A stretch of 64,000 nt of DNA from Escherichia coli (GTDB lineage: Bacteria > Pseudomonadota > Gammaproteobacteria > Enterobacterales > Enterobacteriaceae): the NCBI RefSeq assembly GCF_030013205.1, contig NZ_CP122648.1; one strand, given 5' to 3'. Shown in pieces: positions 28,201 through 34,200 of the stretch; the first letter of the stretch is position 1; each line of letters starts with the position of its first letter. The position numbers were made by a program.

Positions 28201-31200
28201 ATACGTATCAATTTCTCATCTTTTTTGCGAGCTCTTGCAAGCTTTCTTTTCGAGATGCCATACAGGTAATGGGCCACAATCAAAGAATGCTCGTACGGTT
28301 TTCGCTTTTTAAGAAGAGCAAGACAACCTTCAATAATTAATGCATCACTATCTGAACAAGCCTGACGTGTTTTGCTTGTATAGGGAAGAAGCCCTTTAAA
28401 CCCAGCAGCTATAGGAGAATAGTCTACTCCTGAACTATCACTCGCCGCCCATGCTCCCCAACGATCCAGAACCATTTGAATATCACGCATCAACTTTCTC
28501 CACAAAATCAGGCCAGCACGCCAGTTGCCAGCGCACGATCGATAAAACGAAATATCAGCTCCAGCTGGGAGCCATACCTCTCTTCAAATGTCACGGTATC
28601 CGCATGCAGCTCGTCGTGATGCTTTCTGCACAAAGGCAACACAAAAAGGTCATGCGCTTTTGTTCCCATTCCACCCTGACCGTAACCTATCAGGTGGTGG
28701 GGATCATCAGCGGGCTTTCCACAACATGCACACGGCTGTGTCTTAACCCAGCGCGTGTACTTTTCATTAACCCAGCGGCGACGTTTTGGGCGTAACATAA
28801 AAGACTCCGGCGACTCCGGATCCACTTTCAGCGCCAGCACCTTTTTCGCCTTATCCTGGATGATGCTGGTGGCAGGAACCGAAGGCACAAGGTCACTTTC
28901 CCGGGTGACAGACGGCACAACAGGCTTCGGTAATCTCAGTGCCTTACGGGCTGCACTTTCCGGTAAGGCATCCGCCAGGTCATTACGAATCAGCCACCAG
29001 CACAGTTCCGGCATTGTCACAACGTGACTGTCATCAAAACCGAGATCCCGACGCACAACAGACAACACCCAGCGGGCACAGTTATCCGTTGCCATTGATT
29101 CCAGCCGTTCCGTGAACTGATCGCGCAGCTGGTTATCGCAGTGCCAGCACAGACGGATTGCACCCGGAGCGTGTCGCATTGTGGTCATGTTCTCGCTGTG
29201 CCAGTCGGAATGAGGCCACTGGCAGCCTTTTTTACGAAGTAACCAGCTTTCAAGACATTCCACGCCACCAGCACGACGGATCACTGCCTCATTGCGGAAC
29301 ACGGCCCGAACGGCAGGATCATCCGCCAGCGGTTGTGACGCCGCGGGAACGGCACCACTGGCGAAAGATGAATAATGCTCCGGCTCAGGCTCCAGCAGGA
29401 CACGCCCCTGCATAAACAGGGGCATCAGCTCTGAACCGGGCCTGAACAATACGATCCCCATACGCGGGGCAATTTCAGGGGTCAGTAGTGCTCTCACGGT
29501 CACCTCAATGAACGGTATCGAGCAGCTTTAACAGCTCAGGGAATCGGGATTCGAAGAAATGCGGCTGCGTCTCGCGCGGATTTGCGGGACTGGTGATGTT
29601 CTTGCCGAACATGCAGCCTTTCGCTGTCAGCGACCAGAATTTTTTGATGTTGTTAATCGCGGTACGGCTGTATCGTTCGCGTTGTTCAACGATCCCCAGC
29701 TTCGCCATCTGGTGATATGCCTGATTAGCCGTCAGGCGGATACCATACTGTTTCAGCAGTGCACTCAGCGACAGCGTAGGGCGACTTGAGCCATCAGGCG
29801 CGTCAGCAGGAGCATCAATGGCATAGCGCGGTGCCAGATTCGGTAAGCCAACAGCCTCCTGGAGTTTCTGACAGGCACCAAGCACTGAAGAGTTAGACAG
29901 GTTTAACTCCCTGCGCATAAAGTCCAGCAGAATCACTCCAGCCTGCATCTTGTCAGCAGCCTGCCCGGATAATTTTTCCGGTGCGCTGGTTACCATATCG
30001 AAAGTACGGATCACCTTCAGATGGAATGACGGGCTGATCCACATTGCATAGGCATACACCAGTTCTTTGCAGACATACGTCCCCTGGTTATTTCCGCCAT
30101 TAATGACGCTAACTGGTTGATTTTGTTCCAGAGGCGGAATTCCACCCTCGGTGAAAAGTTGTTCAATCAATTCACAGGTTTGCTTATTGGAGAGCCAGTA
30201 TTTCGGGCGGTTTTTTTGTTCTCCCCCGGCTGCCCTGTGCAGATCGTTCAGGCTGTAACGCCCATAAGCATCACGACGAACTTCAATACCATCAATAACC
30301 ATCAGATTATTCATACTTCGTTTCTCCTCTTAATCAGGCGGCTGCACCCGCCGGTTTCTCATACTTACTGATAGTGATCTCGACCTTCCCTTTCGGGATA
30401 ACCGGTCCCCACTCCACCAGCATTCTTTTCACCTGTCTGTCGTCTTCCCACACACCCGCGTGGGTCAGGGCGTCAAACAGCGCCTTGTTATAGTTGTCCA
30501 GATCGCGGATCCGGTTATCCGGAGGAAACAACACGATCTCCACTGAAGCAGGTGCCGACGTTGGTTTCGGCAGACGACGTAACTGCTCAACTATTGCTGC
30601 GCACGCCGCGCTCTGAAATTTTCGCCCCGCCTCGCTTATCAGGCTCTTACCAGCAAATGCCCCTTTGTTGGGGTGTCGCCAGTACGTGTTCACACTGGGC
30701 GGGAAAGGCAGGATCAACTTCATACTTTCAGGCCCCTCTCATGTAACCAGTGGGCTGCACGCAGCCTGGCGTTCTCCTCACCGGCAAGCAGTGCGCGGAT
30801 GATACCGACCGCTTCGCTGTCGTCGTCCTTCACTGCGGTATGAAGCGTTATCCCCCGGGCCACGCCACGCTTTATCGTGATGACGCCTTTTTTCTCCAGT
30901 GCGCGAAGATGCTCCACCGCTGCATTCACCGAACGGTATCCCAGCATGGTTGCCACCTCCTGATTGGTTGGCGGAAAGCCACGCTCTTGCTGGTAAGAAA
31001 TCAGCATATCCAGCACCTGCTGCTGGCATTGAGTTAACGTCGTCATGCCGCCATCTCCCTGACAAGTTTTTCTGCCTGCTGGCGAACCTGCGCCAGAAAC
31101 GCCTCACCACATGCCTCAAGTTCATCGCGCCCGATGTAGCTGATTGCCGGTCCCTTCCAGGTCTTGTCGAAAACAGCAATAGCACCAGCGAAGAAAGCGC

Positions 31201-34200
31201 CTGTCGGCACCTGCTTCTCATCCTTCGGGATAAACCAGGCAGGCAGTTCAAAACCAATACGCCCGCGAATAAAAGCAATATGGTCCGCATCTTCCGGCCA
31301 CCACACTTCGCTGGTGGCAGCTTTGATCAGGAAAACATAGCGCCCGCCCTTATCACGCATGGCACTGGCATGTTTCATGATGTAACGCATGCCGGTGATG
31401 TATTGCCCCTCATGCTGACTGGCGCGGCTGTATGGGGGATTACCAAAGGCAGCACCTTTAAGCTCCGCAAGACGTTCTGACCAGTCATGCGCCAGCGCGT
31501 TGTCTTCCGCCGTGTAATACGCGGCACATTTGGCGTTATCACCGTCAGTGAACAGATCCAGAACAAACGGACCAAACAAGGTGTTAATTCCCCAGAAAAT
31601 GTTGTCCGGCGTGCGCCACTGATCGCCCACTTCCTTCAGTTCATGGGCTGGTTTGTTCCGCAGTTCTACCAGCGCCTGGCAATATTTATTACTCATTAAG
31701 CCCCCACGTAAAAAGCATCCGCAATGTCTCCGGAAGTACAGCCCGGATGGGCTTCAATGAATTTCTGAACGTCATTTAACAGACTCATGATCACCCCCTG
31801 AATCCTGCCGGGATCTGGCTGTAGTCCACGTTGTCGTAACTGGCTTTGAAGTACGGGTCTTCACGTTTTTCTGTGTGCGTGCTGACGGACGGCGATAAGC
31901 GCAGGGAAAGCTCATCCCATTTTTCCCGCAACTTCGACGGGCTGAGCACGTTACGGCACCAGAACGGATCGCGGCTGACGCGGCTGTACATCTCGCAGAT
32001 TTGTTTGTGAGTACGACCATCCTGCACACACATCAGGCGAATTTCGTTTGCCCATGCTGTCCAGTTCGGTTCTTTGGGACGAACCACCTCGCCGTCACAT
32101 TCGGCGGCCTGCTCGTACAGGGCGATGATTTTTTTCCAGAGCCACTGTGCGCAGGTCAAATCATCCTGCGTTCCCCACTGGCGCTTTTTAGGGCTGAATA
32201 CAACCGCATCAGGATGGCGAGTTAAAAACTCCTGTTCAGCCGTTTGCGTGTCCGGTTGCGAAGCGTCCGGACGAGAAGAGGTTTTATTCTCTGTAGTAAT
32301 CTCTGTTGTATTCTCTGTAAGATCATTGGGCCATTTTGACCCGATGACAGCGTGTCGTTTTGAACCAATGGATCGTGTCATTTTGCGCCCATCCATCAGG
32401 TCACTTTGACCCGATGGAGAAGTGCATTTTGACCTGATGGATTCGTTCACTTTGACCTCTTCTAAAAGCTCACTTTCATAGTTGATCGTGTAGAAGTTGG
32501 TCATGTCACGCTTCGATTTATTGAGTTGCTCGCGACGCAAAACCCCAAGTGATTTCAGGCTTGCAAATGTGCGTTTCAGAGTGGACTCTGACCAGAACGG
32601 AAACTGCTCCAGCCACTGTTCTGTCGTGTTATAAACCCAGCGAATTCCGCCATGCTCAGTGCCTGAATTCGTTTCATTCAGCCAGTAATGAAGCTGCTGC
32701 AACACAATTGCCTCATTCAGACCAATACGGCATGCAAGATCACGATTTATCACAATGGGCTGGGATGTCATTAACAGGCTCATGACCGACCTCTATTTCC
32801 CTGAATTTACGACGAAACTGTTCGAGCGGACTGAAGCATTCATGTTCATAGCCTTCACGGAGGTAGATAACCCGTTGTGTTTCCGGCTCCCAACGAATGA
32901 CTCTGACGGGCACTCCGTAGTGATCTTTGAACCAGCGGTTAACTTGTCGCAAAGGACTGTCTCCTTCTGCCGGTTGAAATCACCCACAGCCCACTCTGCA
33001 AAGCTGTGGGTTACAATTTCCCTGTCACCTGGTACATTCACTGCATAGCAATACTCCACCTTCGCTTTTCCACCCGGTACAGGAAGCGCAATCAGTTGCG
33101 AGCGACGGTAGTGTGTTGTTAAACTGTTCATGCGTTAGTTTCTCCACAACCAGAAGCAATCGACGCCACGACGCCCGGAGCTGCACACTCGCGGGCGTTA
33201 CTCTTTTCCGGCGCACAAAAAACACGAAATAACAGTGTTAAATGCTCCTGCCACTTCGCCATTACTTGGTAGCTGTTCTCTTCGATTTGCTCACGCTCAG
33301 CCTGGTCAATAACTCCATCAGCAGTTGCCTTGCGTAAGTACTGGGAATGCTTGCCAATCCATTCTATTGACTCCATCAGCCGCTGATTAATGTCACCATT
33401 GTCAATGTCATCAATGACCACCAGCGGCACAAACACCCCATTACTACGACGGGCTATTGCATCTGTTACATGCCTGGTACCACTGGCATCCTGTAAAACC
33501 ATGGCCCACTCAAGTGGAAAAATTTGATCCCCACCGCTACGCAGTCTGTTATGCAATTGATCTTTTGCTGGGGTGATATCATCAGATTTATACAAACCAA
33601 GAATTTCTGCTGCTTCCTCATAGCCATGAGGTAAATCAGCAATCGTTCTTCGTATTGCTGCCACCAGCCATGCTGGTTGTTTATCAACTTTCCATTCAGG
33701 TTCTTTACCCACGGTTAATTCCTCATTTCTGTGGTGTTTTTATGCCGCAGCACTGTTAGTCTTTTGATATAAAGACACGTCAACTTTCAGTTTCCCGTTA
33801 GTAATTTTTTCTAACTGGTACGCTCGGCCTTCAGGAATAATCTCAGGCCACTCTGAAACAGACGGATGCTTAATACCTAGGGCTTCGGCGGTTTTACAAA
33901 CTCCGCCGAAATAATTAATCACGTCGGATTTCCGCATTTCTGTCTCCCGTTAAATTACGTCAAGCAGGAATGTAGGATATCCAACATGCCAATGTCAAGA
34001 ATCCTACATTGGCATGTGGTAGGATTGCCTACATGATGAACATGAGTGATCGTATTCGCCAAAGGCGAAAAGAACTGAACCTGACACAACAAGCACTGGC
34101 TGATTTGACTGGTGTGAACCGTGTCACGGTTACTGGATGGGAAAAGGACGACTACCAACCAAATGGAGCCAACCTTCAAGCCCTAGCCAACGCACTTAAA

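What the first reader, a model, noticed from the sequence alone, without database searches (positions are those of the whole stretch)
31043..31696. Orphan N6-adenine DNA methyltransferase in the nin-like region
The 217 aa protein carries an NPPY motif and has no partner restriction endonuclease nearby. Phage orphan methyltransferases can protect against host restriction or reprogram gene expression epigenetically.
Basis: partly seen in the sequence, partly recalled or inferred. Interest (0 to 1): 0.3.

Follow-up and report, generated by a model that had tools for sequence, protein, structure and literature searches.

The report
Common prophage orphan adenine DNA methyltransferase
This is an intact copy of a very common prophage gene for a small DNA adenine methyltransferase with no partner restriction enzyme (the full-length form of E. 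coli K-12's broken yfdM gene); it is already annotated as such, and the only open question is which DNA sequence it marks.

Summary
Window 31043..31696 (minus strand) is a 217-aa ORF with FGNPPYS. It scores far above the curated cut-offs of Pfam PF05869 (Dam) and NCBIfam TIGR01712 (phage N-6-adenine-methyltransferase). The AlphaFold model is confident and has an N6-adenine methyltransferase core. dN/dS is 0.05.

The gene lies in the cro-to-Q early-right operon of a defective lambdoid prophage at dusA. No restriction endonuclease or defence effector is present in the element, so "orphan, nin-like region" is supported.

It is not new. PGAP already gives it this name, it occurs in 39% of complete E. 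coli genomes, and K-12 yfdM is its truncated remnant.

The protein belongs to a "long" subclade, only 24-30% identical to the characterised GATC enzymes (VT2-Sa, T1, HP1). Subclade-specific inserts flank the catalytic loop. GATC, possibly relaxed, is therefore the best guess but is unproven.

The gene has no promoter of its own and sits downstream of a repressor-controlled promoter, so it is probably silent in the lysogen. Interest is low.

The parts
31043..31696 (-). Methyltransferase CDS, 217 aa (identical region in ETEC4079 is annotated WP_000066917.1, phage N-6-adenine-methyltransferase); intact homologue of the K-12 pseudogene yfdM
31430..31441 (-). Catalytic motif IV, N86-P-P-Y89; P87, P88, Y89 and S90 are invariant and N86 nearly invariant in 30 diverse homologues
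31538..31567 (-). Strand beta-1 plus the following loop (aa 44-53, FVLDLFTDGD): motif-I-like SAM-binding region with invariant D47. The short clade has LDAAAS here.
   Evidence: the motif assignment is an inference from gamma-type MTase motif I
31394..31426 (-). Long-clade-specific insert (aa 91-101) forming a beta-hairpin directly after NPPYS; absent in the VT2-Sa, T1 and HP1 enzymes. Candidate substrate-contact element.
   Evidence: the DNA-contact role is inferred
31196..31252 (-). Long loop (aa 149-167) between two core strands, 7 aa longer than in the short clade and with the lowest model confidence (about 80); second candidate recognition element
31696..31788 (-). 30-aa ORF overlapping the MTase start (TAATG). 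It is the N-terminal remnant of the PerC-family gene yfdN that occupies this slot in related phages (25/25 aa identical to the Lys8385Vzw PerC N-terminus).
33969..33998 (-). Best sigma-70-like site (TTGACA-18-TACATT, 10/12) between the divergent cI and cro genes; presumed pR-type promoter driving the operon that contains the MTase
   Evidence: a consensus match only, its function is inferred from its position
34009..34686 (+). cI-type repressor (HTH_3 + Peptidase_S24, LexA-like self-cleaving type); expected to keep the operon off in the lysogen and release it on SOS induction
33740..33937 (-). cro (P22_Cro family), first gene of the early-right operon
31791..32783 (-). 330-aa gene upstream of the yfdN remnant, in the slot held by an HTH_36 protein in Salmonella relatives (replication-initiator-like position); no Pfam hit here
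30720..31046 (-). 108-aa protein consisting only of a LexA DNA-binding domain, translationally coupled to the MTase (ATGA overlap). Linked only in the >=95%-identical lambdoid group, absent next to 89% and 70% relatives, so not an obligate partner.
28128..28505 (-). Antiterminator Q, the last gene of the early operon; it defines the MTase position as nin-like

Best explanation
The gene encodes an active, single-domain, SAM-dependent DNA N6-adenine methyltransferase of the phage family PF05869/TIGR01712, with no restriction partner.

It is a delayed-early gene of a lambdoid early-right operon (cro, cII-like, replication-type gene, yfdN remnant, MTase, LexA-DBD, RusA, KilA-N, DUF968, Q). It is therefore repressed by the cI-type repressor in the lysogen and transcribed only after SOS induction or infection, alongside replication. 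In intact relatives of this phage it methylates the rapidly replicating phage DNA before packaging. That fully modified DNA is protected from methylation-sensitive restriction in the next host.

The most likely target is GATC, possibly with relaxed off-target activity as in the cloned prophage homologue M.Btr190III. This is transferred from relatives that are only 24-30% identical.

Status of each step:
- Shown here: family membership, motifs, fold, purifying selection, operon position, absence of a nuclease partner.
- Inferred: catalytic activity, timing of expression, anti-restriction role.
- Weakly inferred (about 50%): GATC as the target.

In this particular prophage, which has lost its head, terminase and tape-measure genes, the gene cannot serve its own virion. 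Here it is probably a still-intact passenger.
For: Family and fold:
- PF05869 at 156 bits and TIGR01712 equivalog at 255.6 bits, both well above their cut-offs.
- PADLOC MTase_II cluster matched end to end.
- D25, W27, T29, D47, N54, P87-P88-Y89-S90 and R146 are invariant, and N86 nearly invariant, across 30 homologues down to 24% identity.
- AF2 model: pLDDT 94.9, pTM 0.90, a single Rossmann-type domain.

Selection: dN/dS is 0.054 against the Salmonella copy; 11 synonymous and 0 non-synonymous differences against phage Lys8385Vzw.

Context:
- The gene sits at the same operon position in phages and prophages of E. coli and Salmonella and in a 70%-identical relative.
- A pR-like site lies between cI and cro, and no promoter-like site lies upstream of the MTase.
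- No REase or defence effector is present in the element.

Relatives:
- VT2-Sa orf32, T1 ST20 and HP1 orf13 pass the same equivalog model.
- M.EcoVT2Dam and M.EcoT1Dam are reported as GATC enzymes. M.Btr190III (35% identical to T1 Dam) methylated GATC plus off-target sites when cloned and was silent in its lysogen (PMC6602927; PMC4996451).
- Relatives at 55-75% identity are fused to C5-cytosine DNA methylase or PAPS-reductase domains, meaning this domain is found fused to other DNA-modification enzymes.
Against: - No experiment on this protein or any long-clade member was found.
- Identity to the GATC-proven enzymes is only 24-30%.
- The long clade has an insert forming a hairpin immediately after NPPYS and a longer loop at aa 149-167, which are plausible substrate-contact elements. 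Specificity may therefore differ.
- The host already has Dam, so a GATC enzyme looks redundant (although T1 and VT2-Sa carry one in the same host).
- The promoter assignment rests on one consensus match, in a scan whose total count was not above shuffled expectation.
- GATC frequency gives no signal: O/E is 0.75 both inside and outside the prophage.
- The prophage is defective, so the proposed benefit cannot operate at this locus.
Confidence: 0.8

Rival explanations
1. The enzyme is an active DNA m6A methyltransferase but does not target GATC. The long clade would have a different short motif or little sequence specificity, giving broad anti-restriction cover, as M.EcoGI/II and Hia5 do in unrelated families.
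For: - Only 24-30% identity to the GATC enzymes, which all fall in the short clade.
- Clade-specific hairpin after NPPYS and an enlarged loop at aa 149-167.
- Single-domain model with no separate target-recognition domain.
- The family member M.Btr190III already shows marked off-target activity.
- Redundancy with host Dam.
- Fusion of close relatives to other modification enzymes.
- Non-specific prophage MTases are documented in E. coli (PMC5778455).
Against: - Every characterised member of the family methylates GATC (T1 and HP1 specificity partly from my own knowledge).
- The short-clade enzymes equally lack a separate recognition domain yet are GATC-specific.
- The residues invariant across both clades include many outside the canonical catalytic tetrapeptide.
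- There is no direct evidence for any other motif.
Confidence: 0.35
2. In this defective prophage the gene is a functionless passenger. It is intact only because decay has not yet reached it, and it contributes nothing to the present host or element.
For: PGAP marks the tape-measure, large terminase, capsid and head-fibre genes as truncated pseudogenes, and there are no portal or head genes. The adjacent yfdN is reduced to 30 codons, and yfdP is frameshifted. K-12 carries the same gene already truncated.
Against: The ORF is intact with all conserved residues, and its protein sequence is identical to copies in active phages (PhiR40_1, 100%). The strong purifying selection measured reflects the family's history rather than this locus, so it does not exclude this rival. 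Song et al. report a phenotype even for the K-12 fragment. This rival concerns the gene's role at this locus and is compatible with the enzyme being active.
Confidence: 0.3
3. The enzyme is expressed in the lysogen and acts as an epigenetic regulator of host or prophage genes.
For: Orphan methyltransferases such as Dam and CcrM do regulate genes (general knowledge; PMC4659465). Leaky or internal transcription cannot be excluded from sequence alone.
Against: The gene is embedded in a tightly coupled operon downstream of a repressor-controlled promoter, with no promoter-like site directly upstream. Prophage MTases studied so far are silent in lysogens (PMC4659465; PMC5778455; PMC4996451). The O111 methylome study found no additional motifs attributable to prophage orphan MTases.
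Confidence: 0.07
4. The true substrate is RNA rather than DNA, because the closest solved fold is the mRNA cap-specific adenosine N6-methyltransferase PCIF1/CAPAM.
Against: DNA MTases score almost the same (EcoDam 10.2, TaqI 10.0, MmeI 9.9). Only the catalytic core aligns, at 12-14% identity. Family members have demonstrated DNA GATC methylation. Relatives are fused to DNA C5-methylases.
Confidence: 0.03

Closest known systems
M.EcoVT2Dam (phage VT2-Sakai orf32), M.EcoT1Dam (T1 ST20), HP1 orf13 Dam: characterised members of PF05869/TIGR01712
   Same: Same HMM family above the equivalog cut-off. Same invariant core residues, including the DxWxTP block, D47, N54, PPYS and R146. All are small single-domain orphan enzymes of phages, and VT2-Sa orf32 is likewise in the nin region.
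   Different: Only 30/24/25% identical. They form a 'short' clade (LDAAAS, no insert after NPPYS, shorter late loop, no N- or C-terminal helices). Their GATC specificity is documented; this protein's is not.
M.Btr190III (Bibersteinia trehalosi prophage MTase, 35% identical to M.EcoT1Dam; PMC4996451)
   Same: A prophage-encoded orphan of the T1-Dam family. It is silent in the native lysogen, and its activity was revealed only on cloning. Its GATC activity would be masked by host Dam. This is the behaviour predicted here.
   Different: Its activity (GATC plus substantial off-target) is measured, whereas this protein's is not.
E. coli K-12 YfdM (CPS-53/KpLE1 cryptic prophage)
   Same: It is the same gene: 97% nucleotide identity over the shared part, the same yfdN-yfdM neighbourhood, and the same yfdP/Q/R prophage type.
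   Different: K-12 keeps only codons 1-89, ending at NPPY, and PGAP marks it as a pseudogene missing its C-terminus. The window copy is full length (217 aa).
M.EcoGI / M.EcoGII (non-specific prophage adenine MTases of E. coli) and Hia5/Hin1523
   Same: Orphan m6A methyltransferases carried on prophages, silent in the lysogen, and thought to protect exported DNA. Phage 1720a-02 is reported to carry an M.EcoGII-like gene and also carries this gene.
   Different: Different families and motif orders: M.EcoGII is beta-class (DPPY ... FxGxG, 349 aa) and Hia5 is alpha-class Dam-related (FxGxG ... DPPY). The query matched neither; Pfam returned PF05869 only.
PCIF1/CAPAM catalytic domain (closest solved fold)
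   Same: Rossmann-type N6-adenine MTase core with an NPP(F/Y) motif; best structural match.
   Different: A eukaryotic RNA cap m6Am enzyme of about 480 residues in the crystallised constructs, with an extra helical domain. Identity is 12-14% and TM below 0.5. This is a fold resemblance only, not family membership.

Membership tests
PF05869 (Dam) / TIGR01712 (phage N-6-adenine-methyltransferase) | Score above the curated whole-protein cut-off of the family HMMs | tested here: met
   156 bits against 28.1; 255.6 bits against 97.05, covering model positions 1-165 of 165
PF05869 (Dam) / TIGR01712 (phage N-6-adenine-methyltransferase) | Catalytic motif IV (D/N)PPY and the family's conserved core residues | tested here: met
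   N86-P-P-Y89-S90. D25, W27, T29, D47, N54 and R146 are invariant in 30 sequences that include VT2-Sa, T1 and HP1.
PF05869 (Dam) / TIGR01712 (phage N-6-adenine-methyltransferase) | Class-I SAM-dependent methyltransferase fold | tested here: met
PF05869 (Dam) / TIGR01712 (phage N-6-adenine-methyltransferase) | Phage or prophage location | tested here: met
   Lambdoid prophage at dusA; 42 phage records carry it at 95-99% nucleotide identity
PF05869 (Dam) / TIGR01712 (phage N-6-adenine-methyltransferase) | Transfer of a methyl group from SAM to adenine N6 in DNA | not testable with these tools
   Needs the cloned enzyme plus LC-MS or SMRT sequencing
GATC-specific phage 'Dam' (functional class of VT2-Sa, T1 and HP1 enzymes) | Methylation restricted to GATC | not testable with these tools
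   Only 24-30% identity to the proven enzymes, a different subclade, and inserts next to the catalytic loop. GATC statistics are uninformative.
Orphan (solitary) methyltransferase | No cognate restriction endonuclease in the same element | tested here: met
   Neighbours are Cro, a cII-like protein, a replication-type protein, LexA-DBD, RusA, KilA-N, DUF968 and Q. There are no PADLOC REase or effector hits. PGAP annotation of the whole identical prophage lists none. Caveat: DUF968 has a sub-threshold HNH-like hit (25.9 against 26.6 bits).
Type II restriction-modification system | Adjacent restriction endonuclease gene | tested here: not met
Alpha-class Dam family (PF02086; EcoDam, T4 Dam, DpnM, Hia5) | N-terminal FxGxG, a central recognition domain, C-terminal DPPY; HMM match to PF02086 | tested here: not met
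   Pfam returned PF05869 only. The motif-I-like strand (aa 44-53) precedes NPPY (aa 86-89) by about 40 residues, with no intervening domain. The PDB sequence search found no Dam homologue.
Beta-class M.EcoGI/GII-like non-specific MTases (PF01555) | N-terminal DPPY, C-terminal FxGxG, about 349 aa; HMM match to PF01555 | tested here: not met
   No PF01555 hit; architecture as described in PMC5778455

The most novel reading that the evidence does not exclude
The 'long' subclade of TIGR01712 is present in about 39% of complete E. coli genomes and has never been characterised biochemically. It could have a specificity different from, or much broader than, GATC, set by the clade-specific hairpin that follows NPPYS and by the enlarged loop at aa 149-167. 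SOS induction of even defective prophages such as this one would then transiently write a non-Dam m6A pattern onto the host chromosome and onto co-resident or superinfecting phages. That might explain the reported dependence of a T1-type phage on the yfdM locus.
Probability: 0.25. Interest if true: 0.4.

Novelty: already known. Interest (0 to 1): 0.12.

Why it matters
It matters little as a discovery. The gene, its family and its orphan status are already in public annotation, and orphan phage methyltransferases are a well-described anti-restriction device.

What remains of value is practical:
1. One of the commonest prophage methyltransferases of E. coli and Salmonella has no measured specificity and no solved structure.
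2. It sits in a subclade distinct from the characterised GATC enzymes, so automatic transfer of "GATC" may be wrong.
3. Methylome surveys of lysogens cannot reveal its activity, which matters for interpreting E. coli methylome catalogues.
4. RefSeq phage records mislabel it as "phosphoadenosine phosphosulfate reductase".

Tried and rejected
1. **Link to the non-specific enzymes M.EcoGII and Hia5.** Rejected. They are beta- and alpha-class enzymes of other families, and the query hits only PF05869.

2. **The downstream LexA-DBD protein as an obligate partner or specificity subunit.** Rejected. It is absent next to the 89% (Salmonella) and 70% relatives.

3. **DUF968 (weak HNH-like hit) as a hidden restriction partner.**
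   - No PADLOC hit, and VT2-Sa carries a family MTase without DUF968.
   - DUF968 did accompany the long-clade gene in all four other loci whose neighbours I listed.
   - So this is unlikely rather than excluded.

4. **GATC and other 4-mer palindrome statistics to infer the target.** Uninformative. GATC O/E is 0.75 in both the prophage and the chromosomal flanks.

5. **Sequence search of the PDB for a solved relative.** Nothing significant. Fold searches gave only core-level matches.

6. **Testing whether M.EcoGV is this protein** (M.EcoGV is a prophage "Dam homolog" with PacBio-determined GATC specificity).
   - Fang et al. 2012 is not held.
   - The O111 paper's supplement has no coordinates.
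   - My guess that VT2-Sa orf4 was the M.EcoGV-type Dam was wrong; it is DUF551.
   - The question is unresolved.

7. **Literature searches for experiments on this clade.** Nothing found beyond the genetic yfdM/SW1 study, which did no methylation assay.

8. **The Murphy et al. 2013 review of phage orphan methyltransferases.** Not held.

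
Full report
**Observation**

The ORF is real. ATG is at 31696 and the stop at 31043 on the minus strand, giving 217 aa with FGNPPYS at residues 84-90. 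NPPY is encoded at 31430-31441.

It is not a chance ORF:
- NCBIfam TIGR01712 "phage N-6-adenine-methyltransferase", an equivalog model: E=1.5e-76, 255.6 bits against 97.05, matched over the whole model.
- PADLOC-DB: a "Type II methyltransferase" cluster profile of exactly 217 positions matched end to end at 523.8 bits.

**Where it is**

The 7-kb surroundings are 100% identical to the chromosomes of porcine ETEC strains 4079, 6333 and 6334. There PGAP already calls the gene "phage N-6-adenine-methyltransferase" (WP_000066917.1).

The element is a lambdoid prophage inserted at dusA, with an integrase beside dusA at one end and a dusA fragment at the other. It is defective: the tape-measure, large terminase, capsid and head-fibre genes are truncated pseudogenes.

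On the minus strand the gene order is:
- cro (33937-33740)
- a cII/CP76-like gene (33712-33128)
- a small DUF4222 gene
- a 330-aa gene in the replication-initiator slot (32783-31791)
- a 30-codon remnant (31788-31696)
- the methyltransferase
- a protein consisting only of a LexA DNA-binding domain (31046-30720)
- RusA, KilA-N, DUF968 and antiterminator Q (28505-28128)

An intact HTH+S24 cI-type repressor is transcribed divergently (34009-34686). Junctions are tight, with TAATG or ATGA overlaps on both sides of the methyltransferase.

The strongest sigma-70-like match on that strand (TTGACA-18-TACATT) lies exactly between cI and cro at 33998-33969. No promoter-like site lies directly upstream of the methyltransferase. 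The scan's total count was not above shuffled expectation, so only the position of that site carries weight.

**Is it orphan?**

Yes, as far as sequence can show.
- Pfam scans of ten neighbours found no restriction endonuclease.
- PADLOC scans of seven operon proteins found no restriction or defence-effector model.
- PGAP annotation of the entire identical prophage lists none, and no second methyltransferase.
- The only nuclease-like hints are RusA (a junction resolvase), an early-left 3'-5' exonuclease, and a sub-threshold HNH-like hit in DUF968 (25.9 against 26.6 bits).

**Is it functional?**

All residues that are invariant across 30 homologues down to 24% identity are present: D25, W27, T29, D47, N54, P87-P88-Y89-S90 and R146. 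So are the near-invariant ones, including N86.

Comparison with diverged DNA copies shows strong purifying selection. There are 11 synonymous and 0 non-synonymous differences against phage Lys8385Vzw, and dN/dS is 0.054 against an 83%-identical Salmonella copy.

An AlphaFold2 model built on the 30-sequence alignment is confident (mean pLDDT 94.9, pTM 0.90) and shows a single alpha/beta domain.

No solved structure is detectable by sequence. By fold, the best matches are catalytic cores of N6-adenine methyltransferases:
- Type I M subunits

Only about 110-155 residues align, at 8-17% identity. The family therefore has no experimentally determined representative, but the fold assignment is secure.

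**Which known enzymes is it like?**

It is not related to the two famous non-specific adenine methyltransferases. M.EcoGII is beta-class and Hia5 is an alpha-class Dam relative.

I fetched the classical phage enzymes: VT2-Sakai orf32 (M.EcoVT2Dam), T1 ST20 (M.EcoT1Dam) and HP1 orf13. All three pass TIGR01712, so they are true family mates. M.EcoVT2Dam and M.EcoT1Dam are cited as GATC enzymes (PMC6602927; PMC4996451). HP1 Dam's GATC specificity rests on my own knowledge (Piekarowicz and Bujnicki).

The query is only 30, 24 and 25% identical to them. The larger alignment splits the family in two.

| Feature | Long clade (the query, all its close relatives, and e.g. the matching genes of 59-kb Salmonella and Klebsiella phages) | Short clade (all the characterised enzymes) |
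|---|---|---|
| Motif-I region | LDLFTDG-NAK | LDAAAS |
| After NPPYS | 8-12-residue insert | no insert |
| Late loop | 7 residues longer | shorter |
| Termini | extra N- and C-terminal helices | none |

In the model, the first insert forms a beta-hairpin (aa 93-101) immediately after the catalytic loop. The second lies in the long loop at aa 149-167. These are plausible substrate-contact positions, but that is an inference, since no DNA complex exists for the family.

"GATC" is therefore the best available guess, not a finding.

A further documented relative, prophage M.Btr190III (35% identical to T1 Dam), methylated GATC with substantial off-target activity when cloned. It was silent in its lysogen, where host Dam would also mask it. 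That is the behaviour I expect here.

**How it most likely works**

- Shown: family, motifs, fold, selection, operon position, absence of a nuclease partner.
- Inferred: the enzyme uses SAM to methylate adenine N6 in duplex DNA. It is transcribed from the cI-controlled early-right promoter only after induction or infection, together with the replication genes. In intact phages it raises methylation of fast-replicating phage DNA before packaging, protecting it from methylation-sensitive restriction in the next host.

The idea that host Dam cannot keep up has a precedent: only about half of lambda's GATC sites are methylated (Drozdz et al.).

Relatives at 55-75% identity are fused to complete C5-cytosine DNA methylases or to PAPS-reductase domains. 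A PAPS-Dam chimera in Vibrio phages has been implicated in escape from Dnd defence. Both fit a DNA-modification, counter-defence module.

Because this prophage cannot make virions, the gene is probably a passenger at this locus.

Published studies repeatedly find prophage orphan methyltransferases silent in lysogens, with activity revealed only on cloning (PMC4659465; PMC5778455; PMC4996451).

A lysogen-versus-cured methylome would therefore most likely show nothing. A GATC enzyme would in any case be hidden by host Dam. "No additional motif" is not a valid refutation. The correct experiment is expression in a methylation-free host, or a dam- lysogen with and without SOS induction.

**How common and how known**

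- The gene occurs in 2,101 of 5,426 complete E. coli genomes (39%), full-length in 1,724, and up to four copies per genome.
- It occurs at 95-99% nucleotide identity in 42 phage records, including Stx2c/Stx2a-converting phages, cdtI phage and phage 1720a-02.
- Protein clusters identical or nearly identical to it hold hundreds to thousands of member sequences.
- The family as a whole was found in 587 phage records.
- In K-12 the same gene survives as yfdM of the CPS-53/KpLE1 cryptic prophage. It is truncated after codon 89, right at NPPY, and PGAP marks it as a pseudogene.
- A study (Song et al., bioRxiv 413146) linked yfdM genetically to propagation of a T1-type phage but measured no methylation. 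A fragment lacking more than half of the fold is unlikely to be a methyltransferase.

**Verdict**

The feature is ordinary and already annotated, so novelty is "already known" and interest is low (0.12).

The only non-trivial residue is that the specificity of this very common long-clade enzyme has apparently never been measured. I give about 50% to GATC (strict or relaxed) and about 35% to something different or broader. The remaining probability covers inactivity or other outcomes.

Noticed in passing
window ~9196-41700 (prophage); L005 1198-33814: The host element is a defective lambdoid prophage at dusA. The tape-measure, large terminase, capsid and head-fibre genes are truncated pseudogenes and there are no portal or head genes. 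The immunity region, early operons, lysis genes and distal tail genes are still intact. It is a relative of K-12 CPS-53 (it carries yfdP, yfdQ and yfdR).
   Followed up: partly
window 31696-31788 (-): The 30-codon ORF overlapping the MTase start is the N-terminal remnant of the PerC-family gene yfdN (25/25 aa identical to the Lys8385Vzw PerC N-terminus). An internal deletion removed the rest but left the TAATG junction with the MTase intact.
   Followed up: yes
phage records NC_009514.1, NC_049941.1 and others: RefSeq phage records label this methyltransferase 'phosphoadenosine phosphosulfate reductase'. This looks like annotation transfer from phrog_33262, a family built on PAPS-reductase+Dam fusion proteins; the query matches only its Dam half (positions 283-492 of 495).
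   Followed up: partly
window 30720-31046 (-): A 108-aa protein consisting only of a LexA DNA-binding domain, with no S24 cleavage domain, is translationally coupled to the MTase. It might bind SOS boxes without being cleavable. It is linked to the MTase only in the >=95% lambdoid group.
   Followed up: partly
window 28508-29503 (-): The DUF968 protein (331 aa) has a just-sub-threshold hit to the putative HNH nuclease family HNHc_6 (25.9 against 26.6 bits). It sat downstream of the long-clade MTase, just before Q, in all four other loci whose neighbours were listed (L001, L006, L008-L010). There is no PADLOC match.
   Followed up: partly
database proteins P0004-P0016, P0121: Many database 'proteins' of 379-382 aa join PerC (PF06069) to this MTase, and others join it to LexA-DBD, RusA or Q. 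They may be frameshift or gene-calling artefacts at the overlapping stop/start junctions, or real fusions. This was not resolved.
   Followed up: no
L011 2501-2767 (K-12 yfdM): K-12 YfdM retains only residues 1-89, ending at NPPY, and so lacks most of the catalytic fold. Yet a preprint attributes a 'methylase' function in T1-type phage SW1 propagation to it. If the phenotype is real, it is unlikely to come from methyltransferase activity.
   Followed up: partly
proteins P0126, P0128, P0133 (C5 methylase + Dam); P0129, P0143 (PAPS_reduct + Dam, both orders): Long-clade MTase domains at 55-75% identity occur fused to complete C5-cytosine DNA methylases, and to PAPS-reductase domains at either terminus. 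Several other long relatives (P0139, P0144, P0153, P0162, P0166) carry 250-390-residue C-terminal extensions with no Pfam hit.
   Followed up: partly
window ~23040-27660; L005 15060-19658: Probable moron cargo sits between the lysis genes and Q: a lipopolysaccharide core heptose(II)-phosphate phosphatase, an AraC-family regulator, a DUF6731 protein and a tRNA-Gly.
   Followed up: no
window 40883-41455 (-) and 40467-40886 (-): A Panacea-domain protein and an adjacent small hypothetical gene lie at the prophage edge next to the dusA fragment. This is a possible toxin-antitoxin or defence pair.
   Followed up: no
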